DNA of 55,621 nucleotides from a virus (lineage: Duplodnaviria; Caudoviricetes), in the IMG/VR virus record IMGVR_UViG_3300042923_000252, positions 1-55,621 of that record. The stretch is one strand, 5' to 3'. The translations under genes and the position numbers were made by a program. The notes below the pieces were generated by a model, which was not told the origin of the DNA, made no database searches, and worked only from the letters and a program-made list of their open reading frames with translations. Shown piece by piece: positions 25,141 to 26,945 of the stretch. How positions within the stretch are numbered: the stretch's first letter is position 1; each line of letters begins with the position of its first letter.

Positions 25141-25342
25141 TAGAAGAGAAAAGAGAAAATACTTAGTAGTTACTCGGTTCCTGAAGAACCGAGTTGACAC
25201 GAGACTCTCTTAGTAGTTATACTAGAACTAAGAGAGAAGTTAGTAAGTAAGTAGTGAGTCTCCTTAAAGAGACTCACCCTAAGTTTCCTTCTTGTTGATC
25301 TCCCTGTTGAGTAAGTAGCCGACCCTTGAAGGTCGGCTTTTT
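25141..25342 (+). other. AT-rich hairpin array (late leader, ncRNA or origin)
   Basis: Hairpins at 25172-25194, about 25205-25236, 25254-25277 and 25317-25342 (last with a T tract). Confidence 0.55.
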
Positions 25343-25437
25343 AGTTCCAGGTTGATTGATTCGAGATCCAAGAGGGTAGTTGGCCCCGGCTGCTAGACCA
25401 GTATCCAGCCGGGGCCCAAGACTTCTTGGAGGTGGTC

Positions 25438-25755
25438 ATGCCCAGGGCGAAGAGTGTATGTCTCACGGCCGGCTGCCCCTCCAAGACTTTCCGCGACGGC
25501 CGGTGCCGAGAGCACCAAGTTCGGAAACCCTGGCAGAACACATCGGCCAGGAACCAGAGCCGGCCCGGTAACTGGCCCTCCATCAGGGCCAGGGTGCTTG
25601 CTCGGGACAGGTTCGCTTGTCAAAGCTGCGGAAAGAGATCCGAGCTTGAGGTGGACCACATTGTCCCGGTGGCCCGGGGAGGCTCCTGGGAGTTGGACAA
25701 CCTCTGGACCTTGTGCAAACCGTGCCACGGTGCCAAGACGAGGAAGTTCGGCTAA
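25438..25755 (+). CDS. HNH endonuclease (terminase-associated type)
   Basis: RARVLARDRFACQSCG...EVDHIVP..GG...NLWTLCKPCH..KT. Confidence 0.92.
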   Translation: MPRAKSVCLTAGCPSKTFRDGRCREHQVRKPWQNTSARNQSRPGNWPSIRARVLARDRFACQSCGKRSELEVDHIVPVARGGSWELDNLWTLCKPCHGAKTRKFG

Positions 25756-25832
25756 TTACTCCTCACCGTCCGGGCCCTGCCCGCACTGGTGGGGCTATTG
25801 CAACCCACCTCGTTCCTTGTGGGCGAGGTTTT

Positions 25833-25906
25833 CCCTCGGTAGCTCAGTTGGTTAGAGCGCCGCCCTCATAAGGCGGAGGTCGCTGGTTCAAGTCCAGCCT
25901 GCGGGA
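25833..25906 (+). tRNA. tRNA with CAT anticodon (Met or Ile2), no encoded CCA
   Basis: TAGCTCAGTTGGTTAGAGC D arm; CCGCC-CTCATAA-GGCGG; GCTGG-TTCAAGT-CCAGC; acceptor with one mismatch. Confidence 0.88.
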
Positions 25907-25976
25907 CGAGGCAGAGTGATGGGGTGAAGAGCCTCCCCCGGTGGTGAGCCGCGGTGTGCTAGCAGCACTTTGCCCT

Positions 25977-26068
25977 TCCTTGGTAGCTCAAAGGTAGAGC
26001 ACTCGGGGCCCCGCCGCTTCGGCGGCAACAGACGAGAGTGGTTGCGGGTTCGAATCCCGTCCAAGGAA
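25977..26068 (+). ncRNA. tRNA-like RNA with perfect acceptor/D/T arms but an expanded non-canonical anticodon arm
   Basis: TCCTTGG/CCAAGGA; GCTC-AAAGGTA-GAGC; GCGGG-TTCGAAT-CCCGT; about 27-nt insert containing GCCGC-TTCG-GCGGC. Confidence 0.75.
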
Positions 26069-26072
26069 CGAA

Positions 26073-26145
26073 GGGGAGGCTGGCTGCTCGCCGGCACGAG
26101 TAAAAGCACCGCTGGTGCCACAGGGTGCAAGTCCCTGACTCCCTA
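26073..26145 (+). ncRNA. Degenerate tRNA-like RNA
   Basis: GGGGAG/CTCCCT acceptor-like stem, CAGGG-TGCAAGT-CCCTG T-like arm, two internal hairpins. Confidence 0.45.
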
Positions 26146-26263
26146 CAACTTCATTCACCCAACAGGGGGTTGGCGTGGCTACAGAGGAAGAGATGAGAGA
26201 TCCGGCCTTCTGCTGGATCTGCATGAGAAAGTGTGGTTCCCAACCACACAAGTAGGAGCACCG

Positions 26264-26557
26264 ATGCCCAAGCCGCGGTACGACGTCCCAGTCAAGGTCT
26301 TCGTTCAGATCGGAGACGGGGAGGTCACCGAGCTGGGCTCAGGCGGCATCCACTACCCCTACATCGTTGACACAGCACTCCCCCGCATCCTGCGGGACAT
26401 AGCCAAGGAACTGGAGAGGAGCCCCGATGACCGAACCCAAGCCCGGCGACTTCGGCCTGACCAAGATCAAGGGTCTGGCCGGCGCCTTCGTCAACTTCGG
26501 TCAATGGTTCGTTGGGGACTTCGCTCCCGTCCAACACGCTCTCGTCTACGTCGGTAA
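26264..26557 (+). CDS. Hypothetical protein
   Basis: RBS AGGAG; long 3' overlap with the next gene. Confidence 0.45.
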   Translation: MPKPRYDVPVKVFVQIGDGEVTELGSGGIHYPYIVDTALPRILRDIAKELERSPDDRTQARRLRPDQDQGSGRRLRQLRSMVRWGLRSRPTRSRLRR

Positions 26558-26945
26558 CGGCCTGGTCGTCCAGGCCATGCCCTCCGGGGCAGAGTTGATC
26601 CGGCTGGAGGACGCTTCGCCTGTTGTGAAGTGGTCCACAGGTCTGGTCGAACTGAACGAGGTTGAGCGCTGGAAGATCGCTCTCAAGGCTACTGAACTGG
26701 CCGGCACCCCCTACTCCTTCCTGGACTACGTCTCAATCGCCCTGAAGCGCCTTGGCGTGCCCTCACGGTTGATTCGAGACCGCGTCCGGGACTCGGGGCA
26801 CCTCATCTGCTCACAGCTCGTCGTGGAGGCGTACAGACGCGCCGGCATCGAGCTGTTCGGACCCGACACCTTCCCCGGCGACTACACGCCCGGGGACCTC
26901 TGGAAGCTGCTCAAGGAAATGGAAGCCGATGCACGAGTTCGATGA
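26427..26945 (+). CDS. Permuted papain-like NlpC/P60 (YiiX/YaeF C92-type) amidase
   Basis: PGD...QHALVYVG...GTPYS...LICSQLV...TPGDL. Confidence 0.88.
   Translation: MTEPKPGDFGLTKIKGLAGAFVNFGQWFVGDFAPVQHALVYVGNGLVVQAMPSGAELIRLEDASPVVKWSTGLVELNEVERWKIALKATELAGTPYSFLDYVSIALKRLGVPSRLIRDRVRDSGHLICSQLVVEAYRRAGIELFGPDTFPGDYTPGDLWKLLKEMEADARVR
26768..26780 (+). promoter_or_regulatory. 13-bp operator/stoperator
   Basis: Exact GTTGATTCGAGAC on the + strand. Confidence 0.75.

What the first reader, a model, noticed from the sequence alone, without database searches (positions are those of the whole stretch)
25755..26160. Array of tRNA-shaped RNAs with no usable anticodon beside one real tRNA
Seen: between the HNH gene and the next ORF lie two hairpins, a normal tRNA(CAT) at 25833-25906, a multibranch element closed by GGCAGAGTG/CACTTTGCC (about 25910-25974), and an RNA at 25977-26068. 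That RNA has a perfect 7-bp acceptor stem, a canonical D arm and a GGTTCGAATCC T arm, but its anticodon arm is replaced by CTCG-GGGCCCC-GCCGC(TTCG)GCGGC-AACAGA-CGAG. A third acceptor + T-arm element at 26073-26145 also carries a CTCG..CGAG hairpin. Intact scaffold arms plus a clean UUCG hairpin argue against random decay. Inference: tRNA scaffolds processed by RNase P/Z that display a different payload, e.g. decoys for anticodon nucleases or other tRNA-sensing defences, ribosome/synthetase modulators, or dimerising RNAs (CGGGGCCCCG is self-complementary).
Basis: partly seen in the sequence, partly recalled or inferred. Interest (0 to 1): 0.8.

Follow-up and report, generated by a model that had tools for sequence, protein, structure and literature searches.

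The report
Anticodon-less tRNA-shaped RNAs in phage array
A Streptomyces-type phage carries, next to one ordinary tRNA gene, at least two conserved genes for tRNA-shaped RNAs that cannot read codons, which probably act as stable tRNA look-alikes whose partner is still unknown.

Summary
Between the HNH gene and the late genes lies a head-to-tail array, with 2-4 nt spacers. It holds tRNA(CAU) 25833-25906, a stem-closed multibranch element, a 92-nt tRNA-shaped RNA (25977-26068) and a 74-nt cloverleaf (26073-26146).

The 92-nt RNA scores 50.7 bits on Rfam tRNA. Its acceptor, D and T arms are intact. Its anticodon hairpin is replaced by CUC/GAG, an internal loop (GGGGCCCC / AACAGA) and a 5-bp tetraloop hairpin. 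Streptomyces phage Ibantik carries the same payload, annotated "tRNA-Gly". There the payload is unchanged except for a UUCG to GGAA tetraloop swap and a 2-nt indel, and the acceptor stem is different but still paired.

The third element has one close homolog (90.5% identity, all 7 differences in loops) and two distant ones. Across the four, 81 of 81 cells are paired and 8 of 22 pairs changed on both sides. No Rfam family matches it.

Close relatives lack the array or carry other cassettes, so it is accessory.

Both RNAs therefore look like selected, non-decoding tRNA mimics (about 0.75). The function is inferred only: most likely processed trans-acting tRNA-body mimics or decoys. No expression data exist.

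The parts
25426..25755 (+). HNH endonuclease gene (109 aa) directly upstream of the array
   Evidence: ORF list. Pfam HNH PF01844, 52 bits. Homologous gene annotated HNH endonuclease in Ibantik.
25761..25794 (+). Hairpin 1 after the HNH stop codon
   Evidence: RNAfold of 25756-25832, z -3.1. Partly conserved in L005.
25807..25832 (+). Hairpin 2 followed by UUUU, a terminator-like 3' end of the HNH gene
   Evidence: Conserved in L004 and L011. The array begins right after it.
25833..25907 (+). Canonical tRNA with anticodon CAU. It is an elongator Met or a lysidine-type Ile2, not an initiator: C1-G72 is paired and there is no GGG/CCC in the anticodon stem.
   Evidence: ARAGORN. Rfam tRNA 65.8 bits. 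A CAT tRNA is called by ARAGORN in 7 of 15 close-relative loci.
25910..25974 (+). Stem-closed multibranch element (9-bp closing stem GGCAGAGUG/CACUUUGCC). Status uncertain.
   Evidence: The minimum-energy fold uses the closing stem, but z is -1.04. Only its first ~17 nt align with Ibantik. Different stem-closed elements occupy this slot in L012 and Ibantik.
25977..26069 (+). Non-decoding tRNA-shaped 'payload RNA'. Acceptor 25977-25983 with 26061-26067. D arm 25986-26000. CUC 26002-26004 with GAG 26036-26038. Discriminator A 26068, then C 26069.
   Evidence: Rfam tRNA 50.7 bits with a 31-nt insertion. Ibantik homolog has 78 of 93 columns identical. Scaffold covariation.
26004..26013 (+). Self-complementary CGGGGCCCCG; GGGGCCCC forms the 5' side of the payload's internal loop
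   Evidence: GGGGCCCC occurs once in the window, 2.6 expected. Invariant in Ibantik. It is the intermolecular helix in the cofold model.
26013..26026 (+). 5-bp GCCGC/GCGGC hairpin capped by a UUCG tetraloop
   Evidence: The stem is invariant and the loop is UUCG here but GGAA in Ibantik.
26027..26035 (+). AACAGA(CGA), the 3' side of the internal loop
   Evidence: AACAGA is invariant in Ibantik; the following CG is an indel.
26044..26060 (+). T arm GCGGG-UUCGAAU-CCCGU of the payload RNA
   Evidence: Shared with L006, L013a and Ibantik.
26073..26146 (+). Element 3, a 74-nt cloverleaf. Closing stem 26073-26078 with 26139-26144. Hairpin 1 26079-26095. A-rich linker 26096-26105. Hairpin 2 with triloop 26106-26118. 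T-like arm 26121-26137 (loop UGCAAGU). Tail AC 26145-26146.
   Evidence: RNAfold z -2.15. L012 homolog has 67 of 74 identical, all 7 changes unpaired. Covariance-model relatives in L088 and L039. 81 of 81 cells paired and 8 of 22 pairs covary. No Rfam family.
26175..26255 (+). Small conserved ORF (26 aa, GTG start) between the array and the next gene. It is not part of the RNAs.
   Evidence: Read from the sequence. The coding-like stretch GAAGAAGAGATG..TGCTGGA is conserved with Ibantik. No Pfam match.

Best explanation
The stretch 25833-26146 is an accessory, modular array of small-RNA genes built on the tRNA plan. It sits at the start of the rightward operon of a temperate Streptomyces-type siphophage.

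One member is a working tRNA(CAU). At least two others cannot decode but are kept by selection for their fold. These are the 92-nt payload RNA (25977-26068) and the 74-nt element 3 (26073-26146).

Shown:
- The payload RNA keeps every helix of the tRNA L-shape and, as I read the sequence, its tertiary-contact nucleotides too.
- Where the anticodon hairpin should be, it displays a conserved internal loop (GGGGCCCC opposite AACAGA) held on a tetraloop-capped hairpin.
- Element 3 keeps an acceptor-like stem, a T-like arm and the 'AC' tail.

Inferred:
- The elements are cut out of one transcript by the host tRNA-maturation enzymes: RNase P at each 5' end, then 3' trimming and CCA completion. The 2-4 nt spacers, the closed stems, the A-C that follows each stem, and the CCA encoded in Ibantik all fit this.
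- They accumulate as stable RNAs that act in trans as tRNA-body mimics. They would compete for, or titrate, a host factor that recognises the tRNA elbow and acceptor end, such as a tRNA-targeting defence or toxin enzyme. They could neither be used by the ribosome nor be disabled by anticodon-loop cleavage.
- The conserved internal loop is the specific contact site.

My odds: selected non-decoding RNAs about 0.75; processed like tRNAs about 0.6; a decoy or competitor role specifically about 0.3.
For: 1. tRNA body. Rfam tRNA scores 50.7 bits with acceptor, D and T arms aligned and a 31-nt insertion in the anticodon arm.

2. Conservation pattern of the payload, window versus Ibantik. 78 of 93 columns are identical. 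All 8+6 internal-loop nucleotides and the 5-bp hairpin stem are unchanged. All 4 tetraloop nucleotides changed, from UUCG to GGAA, both stable tetraloop classes. The acceptor stem differs at 5 of 7 pairs and keeps 6 of 7 pairs in Ibantik. The neighbouring HNH gene is only 75.4% identical, and the flanks do not align.

3. Scaffold family. Across 9 second-slot elements from related phages, 143 of 144 cells are paired. 9 of 16 pairs changed on both sides. 0 of 500 shuffles reach the observed covariation score.

4. Element 3. The L012 homolog is 90.5% identical, and all 7 differences fall in the 30 unpaired columns of 74. By my arithmetic, (30/74)^7 is about 0.002. Model R1 finds L088 (31.7 bits) and L039 (22.6 bits). 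In the 4-member alignment, 81 of 81 cells are paired and 8 of 22 pairs changed on both sides; slid controls give 0-1.

5. Maturation-type signals. A-C follows the closing stem in 9 of 9 scaffold elements and in 4 of 4 element-3 relatives. CCA is encoded after the Ibantik and L006 elements. Spacers are 2-4 nt.

6. Accessory cassette. L086 has only the tRNA(CAT) and then rejoins the window at 26147. L004 has a different 85-nt element in this place. A soil-run contig joins 25829 to 26145.

7. Context from papers. A 7-bp acceptor stem makes a tRNA-like ncRNA an RNase P and CCA-addition substrate in Mycobacterium (PMC4201824, passages read). Phage tRNA loci are argued to counter host tRNA nucleases (PMC10264068, abstract read; PMC13096335, abstract as listed by the search).
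Against: - There is no expression or processing evidence of any kind.
- Each RNA has very few relatives. The payload is known from the window, Ibantik and one unseen soil variant. Element 3 has one close and two distant relatives.
- The payload itself therefore shows no true covariation beyond the tetraloop swap.
- The different acceptor stems could come from recombination between tandem tRNA genes rather than from compensatory change. Ibantik's element looks mosaic, with a His-type acceptor and a Thr-type T arm.
- High identity could reflect recent cassette transfer rather than purifying selection.
- The alignment used was fitted to the model and so leans towards the structure.
- Close relatives do without the array, so it is not essential.
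- Nothing in the data points to a particular host partner. The window encodes no tRNA-repair or Ro60 protein that could hint at one.
Confidence: 0.5

Rival explanations
1. Cis-acting processing punctuation. The tRNA-shaped elements are not trans-acting RNAs. They are RNase P/Z cleavage signals that separate the HNH message from the late-gene message and give it defined, stable ends, as t-elements do in plant mitochondria.
For: The array lies between the HNH gene and the first late genes, at the head of the rightward operon. RNase P needs only the acceptor/T-arm/elbow part, and exactly that part is kept. Anticodon content would be irrelevant, which would explain the many different anticodon-arm replacements among relatives.
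Against: It does not explain why the payload's internal loop and hairpin are invariant between two phages whose flanks no longer align. It does not explain why hairpins 1 and 2 of element 3 covary. In Ibantik and L012 an intrinsic terminator follows the array, so there the array looks like the end of a short unit rather than a junction inside an mRNA. The single canonical tRNA(CAU) would already supply a cleavage site.
Confidence: 0.2
2. Decaying or recombination-scrambled tRNA genes. The locus is a birth-and-death tRNA array, and the odd members are young pseudogenes or chimeras with no function.
For: The locus is highly variable. Relatives carry Met, His, Thr-like, Glu-like, 6- or 8-nt-loop variants, or nothing. 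Ibantik's element is mosaic, and its payload arm begins with the 5' strand of a His-type anticodon stem (A-CUCGG). Ibantik also has a clearly degraded tRNA-like remnant (20.5 bits) that is deleted in the window. The array is dispensable.
Against: Decay should hit all arms. Instead 143 of 144 scaffold cells stay paired. In both pairwise comparisons every difference lies in loops, or leaves the helix paired apart from one U-U mismatch at 2-71 in Ibantik's acceptor stem. Both RNAs are more conserved (about 91%) than the adjacent protein gene (about 75%). The element-3 family has compensatory changes in all four helices.
Confidence: 0.15
3. DNA-level element. The GC palindromes are protein-binding, recombination or homing-nuclease sites that happen to lie inside former tRNA genes. 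They are CGGGGCCCCG here, ACCCGGGT in L006/L013 and GGCGCGCC in L083.
For: Perfect DNA palindromes sit at the same position, just after the 5' strand of the anticodon stem, in three different payload types. An HNH nuclease gene is adjacent. Homing nucleases are known to act in phage tRNA clusters (PMC2330249, abstract as listed by the search).
Against: The palindromes are only weakly unexpected, with shuffle P of 0.04-0.13 each. GGGGCCCC occurs once in the genome and GGGCCC is not avoided, at 32 sites. The HNH gene is present in relatives whatever their array holds. In L007b the matching octamer GGGGUCCC is self-complementary only as RNA, through G-U pairs. A DNA site does not explain the conserved RNA helices.
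Confidence: 0.05
4. An interrupted but functional tRNA. The insert is removed, as an intron would be, or tolerated, and the RNA still decodes.
For: ARAGORN reads it as tRNA-Gly(ccc), and GenBank annotates the Ibantik copy as tRNA-Gly. The relatives L006/L013a do become a near-perfect tRNA-Thr(UGU) arm if the 8-nt ACCCGGGU is removed.
Against: No excision of the 29-31 nt leaves a 7-nt loop with U33 and an anticodon (read from the sequence, alignment). ARAGORN's fold has a 3-bp stem with 2 mismatches. No group I intron or other ribozyme family matched in Rfam. The window holds no RtcB-type ligase. In L013a position 33 is C, not U.
Confidence: 0.03

Closest known systems
Canonical bacterial or phage tRNA (Rfam RF00005)
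   Same: The payload RNA has a 7-bp acceptor stem, U8-A9, a GCUC/GAGC D stem with a GG-containing D loop, a 5-nt variable loop, a GCGGG-UUCGAAU-CCCGU T arm and discriminator A. It passes the Rfam gathering score (50.7 versus 29 bits).
   Different: It has no 5-bp anticodon stem, no 7-nt loop and no anticodon. A 29-31-nt structured insert stands in their place. Element 3 does not match RF00005 at all at E<=10.
YrlA / bacterial and phage Y RNAs with a tRNA-like domain (Rfam RF02553; PMC4201824)
   Same: These are non-decoding RNAs that imitate the tRNA elbow and acceptor. The Mycobacterium member is cut by RNase P and receives CCA. They occur in Actinobacteria and phages (passages read).
   Different: Y RNAs are defined by a Ro60-binding stem formed by their 5' and 3' ends and by a neighbouring Ro60 (TROVE) gene. 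Here the ends form the acceptor stem, the window has no TROVE gene, and RF02553 gives no hit in the window locus. The only hit is a 20.7-bit sub-threshold match in Ibantik's spacer.
Small stable RNAs of phage tRNA clusters (T4 'species 1 and 2' / rnaC, rnaD; T5 tRNA-like stable RNA).
   Same: They are tRNA-sized, co-transcribed and co-processed with phage tRNAs, do not decode, and have no known function.
   Different: No sequence or structure comparison was made here. Different phage groups and hosts. My literature search for them returned nothing usable.
Engineered 'tRNA scaffold' for RNA expression (anticodon arm replaced by a cargo). Recalled, not from a call.
   Same: It has the same architecture as the payload RNA: an intact tRNA body that ensures processing and stability, with a foreign hairpin grafted on the anticodon stem.
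   Different: That is a laboratory design. This is a natural phage gene with a conserved cargo.
tmRNA tRNA-like domain
   Same: Acceptor stem plus T arm, no anticodon.
   Different: ARAGORN's tmRNA search found none. There is no tag reading frame and no G3-U70. The payload RNA has a full D arm, which tmRNA lacks.

Membership tests
tRNA (RF00005) | Score at or above the Rfam gathering threshold (29 bits) | tested here: met
   Payload RNA 50.7 bits; Ibantik copy 46.6 bits. Element 3 has no hit at E<=10.
tRNA (RF00005) | Acceptor, D and T helices with the elbow nucleotides (G18 G19, U54 U55 C56, A58) | tested here: met
   Infernal alignment. Parse of arms. 143 of 144 cells paired across 9 relatives. 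Element 3 lacks the D-loop GG and has G at position 55.
tRNA (RF00005) | 5-bp anticodon stem with a 7-nt loop, U33 and an anticodon | tested here: not met
   Only 3 bp (CUC/GAG) remain. 31 nt replace 11 model positions. The hairpin loop has 4 nt. ARAGORN's ccc reading needs a mismatched 3-bp stem.
YrlA / Y RNA (RF02553) | Adjacent Ro60/Rsr (TROVE) gene | tested here: not met
   PF05731 gives 0 matches in the 55.6-kb record; the control genomes do give matches.
YrlA / Y RNA (RF02553) | Covariance-model match and a Ro-binding stem formed by the RNA's ends | tested here: not met
   No RF02553 hit in the window locus at E<=10. There is a 20.7-bit match (gathering score 69) in Ibantik's spacer only. 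Here the ends form the acceptor stem.
tmRNA | tRNA-like domain plus a tag-peptide reading frame | tested here: not met
   ARAGORN with tmRNA search reports 0 tmRNA genes. No Rfam tmRNA match.
Intron-containing tRNA (group I or bulge-helix-bulge) | A recognisable intron whose removal restores an anticodon arm | tested here: not met
   No intron family at the Rfam gathering score or at E<=10. ARAGORN with -i reports no C-loop intron for this gene. No excision yields a 7-nt loop with U33.
RNase P / CCA-enzyme substrates (tRNA-like ncRNAs) | Cleavage at position +1 and CCA addition in vivo | not testable with these tools
   Only sequence features fit: the 7-bp acceptor, the A-C tail in 9 of 9 and in 4 of 4 elements, and CCA encoded in Ibantik and L006.

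The most novel reading that the evidence does not exclude
The payload RNAs are tRNA bodies that pair with each other through the GC palindrome displayed where the anticodon should be: CGGGGCCCCG here, GGCGCGCC in L083, and possibly ACCCGGGU and GGGGUCCC in other relatives. This would give a rigid two-tRNA particle that imitates two tRNAs held side by side, as on neighbouring codons. Such a particle could block or bait a dimeric tRNA-binding machine, either a defence nuclease or the ribosome. If true, this would be a new class of phage RNA effector: natural dimerising tRNA scaffolds with exchangeable cargo. Support so far is thin. The cofold calculation keeps all the tRNA arms and adds an intermolecular GC helix. 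It gives ddG of -16.7 and -19.5 kcal/mol, against about -9.5 (sd 2.9) for shuffles and -6 to -8 for canonical tRNAs of the same locus. The palindrome recurrence is weak.
Probability: 0.08. Interest if true: 0.85.

Novelty: new variant of a known kind. Interest (0 to 1): 0.6.

Why it matters
Phage tRNA clusters are now seen as counter-defence loci, but attention has gone to decoding tRNAs. Here two RNAs keep the tRNA body under selection while giving up decoding. One of them is annotated in GenBank as an ordinary 'tRNA-Gly'. The same scaffold also appears in related phages with several different cargos.

If these RNAs are expressed and processed, they would be natural counterparts of the laboratory tRNA scaffold and candidate RNA decoys. 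They would also show that automatic tRNA calls in actinophage genomes hide a class of non-coding RNAs.

Ibantik is a cultured phage with a laboratory host, so the question can be tested directly.

Tried and rejected
- **Exact-pattern scans for the payload.** Three patterns in viral contigs gave 0 hits. One pattern in genome contigs gave a single hit, in a Rikenella metagenome-assembled genome. ARAGORN calls it an ordinary 75-nt tRNA-Arg(tct), so it is a chance match.
- **Pattern scan for element 3** in viral contigs found only the L012 contig.
- **blastn against the phage collection.** 298 records matched. Among the 40 rows shown, only the two Ibantik records extend beyond the tRNA(CAT) part. 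258 rows were not shown.
- **BLAST of 25756-26264 against the 164 other loci held by then (L002, the window's own locus, left out).** The payload matches Ibantik only, and element 3 matches L012 only.
- **Model R2** found the payload only in the window and Ibantik. The other 196 hits align by the tRNA scaffold. Only 98 of the sources were searched; L101-L165 were not searched with R2.
- **Model R1 on L101-L165** gave only weak hits, read as tRNA T-arm/acceptor matches from the 5 alignments shown.
- **Sequencing runs.** No RNA holder is listed. Contigs laid from four DNA runs showed a third payload variant in run X7 (record 31, 25978-26069, 4 other letters). The table was cut and the letters were not shown, so it adds nothing on covariation.
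- **Restriction-site idea for GGGGCCCC.** Rejected: GGGCCC is not avoided, at 32 sites.
- **Palindrome significance.** Mononucleotide shuffles give P 0.085 (window), 0.038 (Ibantik), 0.13 (L013a) and 0.10 (L083). L007b, L011b, L008b and the His tRNA have none. This is suggestive at best and was tested post hoc.
- **Protein-coding reading.** The antisense ORFs 25888-26130 and 25988-26251 have no Pfam match, and Ibantik annotates no CDS there.
- **tRNA-repair or Ro60 partners in the window.** No TROVE, no RtcB.
- **Promoter scan of 25300-26700.** 0 sigma-70-like sites. This is uninformative for Streptomyces.
- **Literature.** Six full-text searches found no description of these RNAs. Supplementary tables were not opened, including those of PMC10690425, which lists phage tRNA-like candidates. 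They could hold a matching motif.
Full report
**What the window is**

The window is a complete IMG/VR virus record of 55,621 bp, 99% complete by CheckV. Its nearest named relative is the temperate Streptomyces phage Ibantik (NC_073462).

In Ibantik the leftward replication genes end at an immunity repressor. The rightward unit then starts with an HNH endonuclease gene, two annotated tRNAs (Met and 'Gly') and an intrinsic terminator. The peptidase, endonuclease VII, terminase and structural genes follow. The window has the same order. The HNH gene is at 25426-25755 (Pfam HNH, 52 bits) and the peptidase homolog is at 26427-26945.

**Checking the observation**

ARAGORN finds tRNA-Met(cat) at 25833-25907 and a 93-nt 'tRNA-Gly(ccc)' at 25977-26069. 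Rfam's tRNA model passes both, at 65.8 and 50.7 bits against a gathering score of 29.

The Infernal alignment shows what the second one is. It has a 7-bp acceptor stem, U8-A9, a GCUC/GAGC D arm, A26, and only three pairs (CUC/GAG) of an anticodon stem. Next come 31 nt in place of 11 model positions, a 5-nt variable loop, a GCGGG-UUCGAAU-CCCGU T arm and discriminator A. ARAGORN's Gly(ccc) drawing needs a 3-bp stem with two mismatches and a 25-nt 'variable arm', so I reject it.

Read directly from the sequence, the insert is G-GGGCCCC, then GCCGC-UUCG-GCGGC, then AACAGA-CGA. That is an asymmetric internal loop carrying a tetraloop hairpin. The nucleotides that build the tRNA core are all present: U8, A14, G18 G19, C13-G22 with G46, A15 with U48, and U54 U55 C56 A58.

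- The two hairpins after the HNH stop are real (z -3.1). The second is terminator-like.
- The multibranch element 25910-25974 does close with the 9-bp stem, but it folds no better than shuffles (z -1.04).
- The third element folds into a 6-bp closing stem and three hairpins (z -2.15). It gets no Rfam match at E<=10.

The four elements are packed with spacers of 3, 2 and 4 nt.

**The payload RNA in a second phage**

Ibantik's 'tRNA-Gly' (L001:1712-1802) is the homolog (46.6 bits). 78 of 93 aligned columns are identical. The differences are not spread evenly.
- 10 differences lie in the acceptor stem. Five pairs are replaced, and Ibantik keeps 6 of 7 pairs with one U-U mismatch.
- 1 lies in the D loop.
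- 4 of 4 tetraloop nucleotides differ (UUCG versus GGAA).
- There is a 2-nt indel after AACAGA.
- GGGGCCCC, AACAGA and the 5-bp hairpin stem show no change.

In the same genome pair the HNH gene is 75.4% identical, and the sequences flanking the element do not align. A swap between the two classical stable tetraloop families, with the stem untouched, is the signature of a hairpin kept for its structure (general knowledge; PMC4371310, abstract as listed by the search).

No further copy turned up in any of these searches:
- the phage collection, in the 40 rows shown of 298 records;
- IMG/VR, with three patterns;
- one genome per prokaryote species, where the single hit is an ordinary tRNA-Arg;
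- the 164 other loci held by then (L002, the window's own locus, left out);
- covariance model R2.

A soil run from another study does hold a contig covering 25978-26069 with 4 differences, but the output did not show which letters.

**The scaffold family**

Using the peptidase as an anchor, I fetched 80 IMG/VR loci and 80 metagenome loci. I counted 15 close-relative loci: Ibantik, L004-L013 and L086-L089. Most of them carry tRNA-type genes between the HNH and peptidase genes.

The second-slot genes share one D arm (UA-GCUC-AAxGGUA-GAGC) and two acceptor types.
- Normal tRNA-His(GUG): L009, L010, L013b, L087.
- A Thr(UGU)-like gene with the perfect 8-nt palindrome ACCCGGGU inserted between the 5' strand of the anticodon stem and the loop: L006 and L013a, at 52-56 bits.
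- A 7-bp stem with a 16-nt loop: L007b.
- An 8-nt loop: L011b.
- A more distant element, L083 872-958, with the same D arm, a 6-bp stem, GGCGCGCC and CAACACAAA.

The window's element has the Thr-type acceptor and T arm. Ibantik's has the His-type acceptor, and its payload starts with A-CUCGG, the 5' strand of the L013b His anticodon stem. Recombination between neighbouring tRNA genes has therefore shaped these genes.

Across nine of these elements the acceptor, D and T helices are paired in 143 of 144 cells. Nine of 16 pairs changed on both sides. No shuffle of 500 reaches the observed covariation score, and slid controls give 42-51% pairing. The non-decoding members keep the tRNA body as well as the true tRNAs do.

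**Element 3 is a second, separate RNA family**

L012 (=L085) carries a copy at 2408-2481 with 67 of 74 identical positions. The seven differences are four in the loop of hairpin 1, two just after it and one in the triloop. All 22 base pairs are untouched. The chance that 7 changes all fall in the 30 unpaired columns is about 0.002 (my arithmetic).

In L012 the element stands exactly where Ibantik has the payload RNA. It follows a long hairpin conserved between the two phages and precedes a hairpin plus intrinsic terminator.

A covariance model of the two copies (R1) finds two further relatives: L088 255-329 (31.7 bits) and L039 2887-2963 (22.6 bits). Both lie just upstream of the same late-gene block. 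The plan is the same in all four:
- a closing stem;
- an immediately adjoining hairpin;
- a 10-11-nt purine-rich linker ending in UAAA(A);
- a short-looped hairpin;
- two nucleotides;
- a T-type arm (UUCAAAU, UUCAAGU or UGCAAGU);
- the closing stem again, then A-C.

In the four-member alignment 81 of 81 cells are paired, and 8 of 22 pairs in all four helices changed on both sides. Slid controls give 0-1 such pairs. The caveat is that this alignment was fitted to the model. Rfam has no family for L088 or L039 at those places either.

**The array is accessory and modular**

- L086 has the tRNA(CAT) and then continues directly with the sequence that follows 26146 in the window.
- L004 is the closest relative by peptidase (88%). 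It has an unrelated 85-nt cloverleaf-like element in place of 25833-26144 and no Rfam tRNA hit.
- A contig in the soil run that holds most of the window joins 25829 to 26145.
- Ibantik's slot-2 element is a degraded tRNA-like sequence (20.5 bits). Its acceptor and T arm resemble a tRNA-like gene of a large phage contig, L072. The window has a deletion there.

**How it probably works**

Shown: these are two conserved RNA folds on the tRNA plan that cannot decode.

Inferred from established tRNA biology:
- A 7-bp acceptor stacked on a T arm, with an intact elbow, is what RNase P, the 3' trimming enzymes and the CCA enzyme recognise. In Mycobacterium, a tRNA-like domain with a 7-bp acceptor stem in the non-coding RNA YrlA is cut by RNase P and gets CCA (PMC4201824, passages read).
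- Every element here is followed by A-C: 9 of 9 and 4 of 4.
- Ibantik and L006 encode the full CCA.
- The short spacers match tRNA operons.

I therefore expect the RNAs to be released and stabilised like tRNAs.

The conserved internal loop of the payload RNA is the likely contact surface for a partner. Phage tRNA clusters are currently understood as answers to host tRNA-directed nucleases (PMC10264068, abstract; PMC13096335, abstract as listed). On that basis a tRNA-body mimic that cannot be used or cleaved at an anticodon loop is most simply read as a competitor or decoy. I hold this reading at about 0.3. Nothing here identifies the partner.

**Rivals**

- A purely cis role as processing punctuation (0.2) fits the position but not the conserved cargo.
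- Neutral decay or recombination debris (0.15) fits the turnover of the locus but not the loop-restricted changes.
- A DNA-level role for the palindromes (0.05) and a spliced tRNA (0.03) fit poorly. GGGCCC is not avoided, the palindrome statistics are weak, and there is no intron family and no RtcB.

**The dimer idea**

The window's CGGGGCCCCG is self-complementary. ViennaRNA cofolding keeps all the tRNA arms and adds the intermolecular GC helix. It gives ddG of -16.7 kcal/mol (window) and -19.5 (Ibantik). Shuffles give -9.3 and -9.6 (sd 2.9), and the His and Met tRNAs of the same loci give -6 to -8. L083 gives -15.9. L006 and L013a do not use their palindrome in the minimum-energy dimer. This is a calculation only, and I keep it as the novel case.

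**Comparison with the known, and novelty**

The payload RNA passes the tRNA model but fails the defining anticodon arm, so I do not file it as a tRNA.
- It is not a Y RNA: no Ro60 gene, no RF02553 match, and a different topology.
- It is not a tmRNA.
- It is not an intron-bearing tRNA.
- It works like the laboratory tRNA scaffold and resembles in kind the unexplained small stable RNAs of T4 and T5 tRNA clusters. Both comparisons are recalled and were not tested here.

Six literature searches found no description of either RNA. A survey of IMG/VR structured RNAs reports tRNA-like candidates in general terms (PMC10690425, passages read); I could not open its supplementary tables.

Earlier unchecked notes of this scan list several other anticodon-less tRNA-shaped RNAs in Streptomyces phages. 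That agrees with the picture of a recurrent class but is not independent evidence.

Verdict: this is a real feature and a new variant of a known kind (phage tRNA-like non-coding RNAs). Structural selection is well supported. Expression and function remain open.

Noticed in passing
window 26175-26255; Ibantik L001 about 1887-1995: A small ORF (26 aa here, GTG start after AGGGGG; about 35 aa in Ibantik) with the conserved motif TEEEMR..P..CW lies between the RNA array and the next annotated gene. It is not annotated in Ibantik and has no Pfam match.
   Followed up: partly
whole window: Several 6-bp palindromes are strongly avoided, given as observed/expected: CTCGAG 0/21.8, CAGCTG 1/20.6, AGGCCT 1/19.0, GAGCTC 2/30.5, ATCGAT 0/8.8, GGATCC 1/11.3. 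This looks like restriction-site avoidance. GGGCCC and CCCGGG are not avoided.
   Followed up: no
L006 11-91 and L013 2221-2301: A tRNA-Thr(UGU)-like gene carries the perfect 8-nt palindrome ACCCGGGU inserted between the 5' strand of the anticodon stem and the loop. The two copies differ at U33 (C in L013) and by a U-A to U-G change in the acceptor. Rfam tRNA scores are 52-56 bits.
   Followed up: partly
L041 164-235, L042 2258-2329, L045 681-752: These are His-like tRNA genes with a 6-nt anticodon loop (CAGUGG / CAGGGG), which ARAGORN calls 'tRNA-???'. They are further candidates for non-decoding tRNA bodies in related phage arrays.
   Followed up: no
L063 1106-1224, L071 1518-1647, L072 1510-1633, L074 837-965: Large (~131-kb) Streptomyces-phage-type contigs carry a 119-130-nt tRNA-shaped gene with a long structured insert after the anticodon-stem position. 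ARAGORN calls it 'tRNA-Cys/Arg with intron'. It is probably the class described in earlier notes of this scan.
   Followed up: no
L001 1661-1708 and L012 2360-2405: A long, well-conserved hairpin (GCCUGAyAAGGA...UCCUUGUCGGGC, z -2.6 to -2.9) precedes the payload RNA in Ibantik and element 3 in L012. It is absent from the window.
   Followed up: partly
window 25317-25338: A terminator-like hairpin with a U tract lies about 90 nt upstream of the HNH start. The HNH gene and the RNA array may therefore form their own short transcription unit.
   Followed up: no
L008 2535-2607: A Glu(UUC)-like tRNA has a 4-bp anticodon stem and the same unusual T loop (UGCAAGU, G at position 55) as element 3 of the window.
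   Followed up: no
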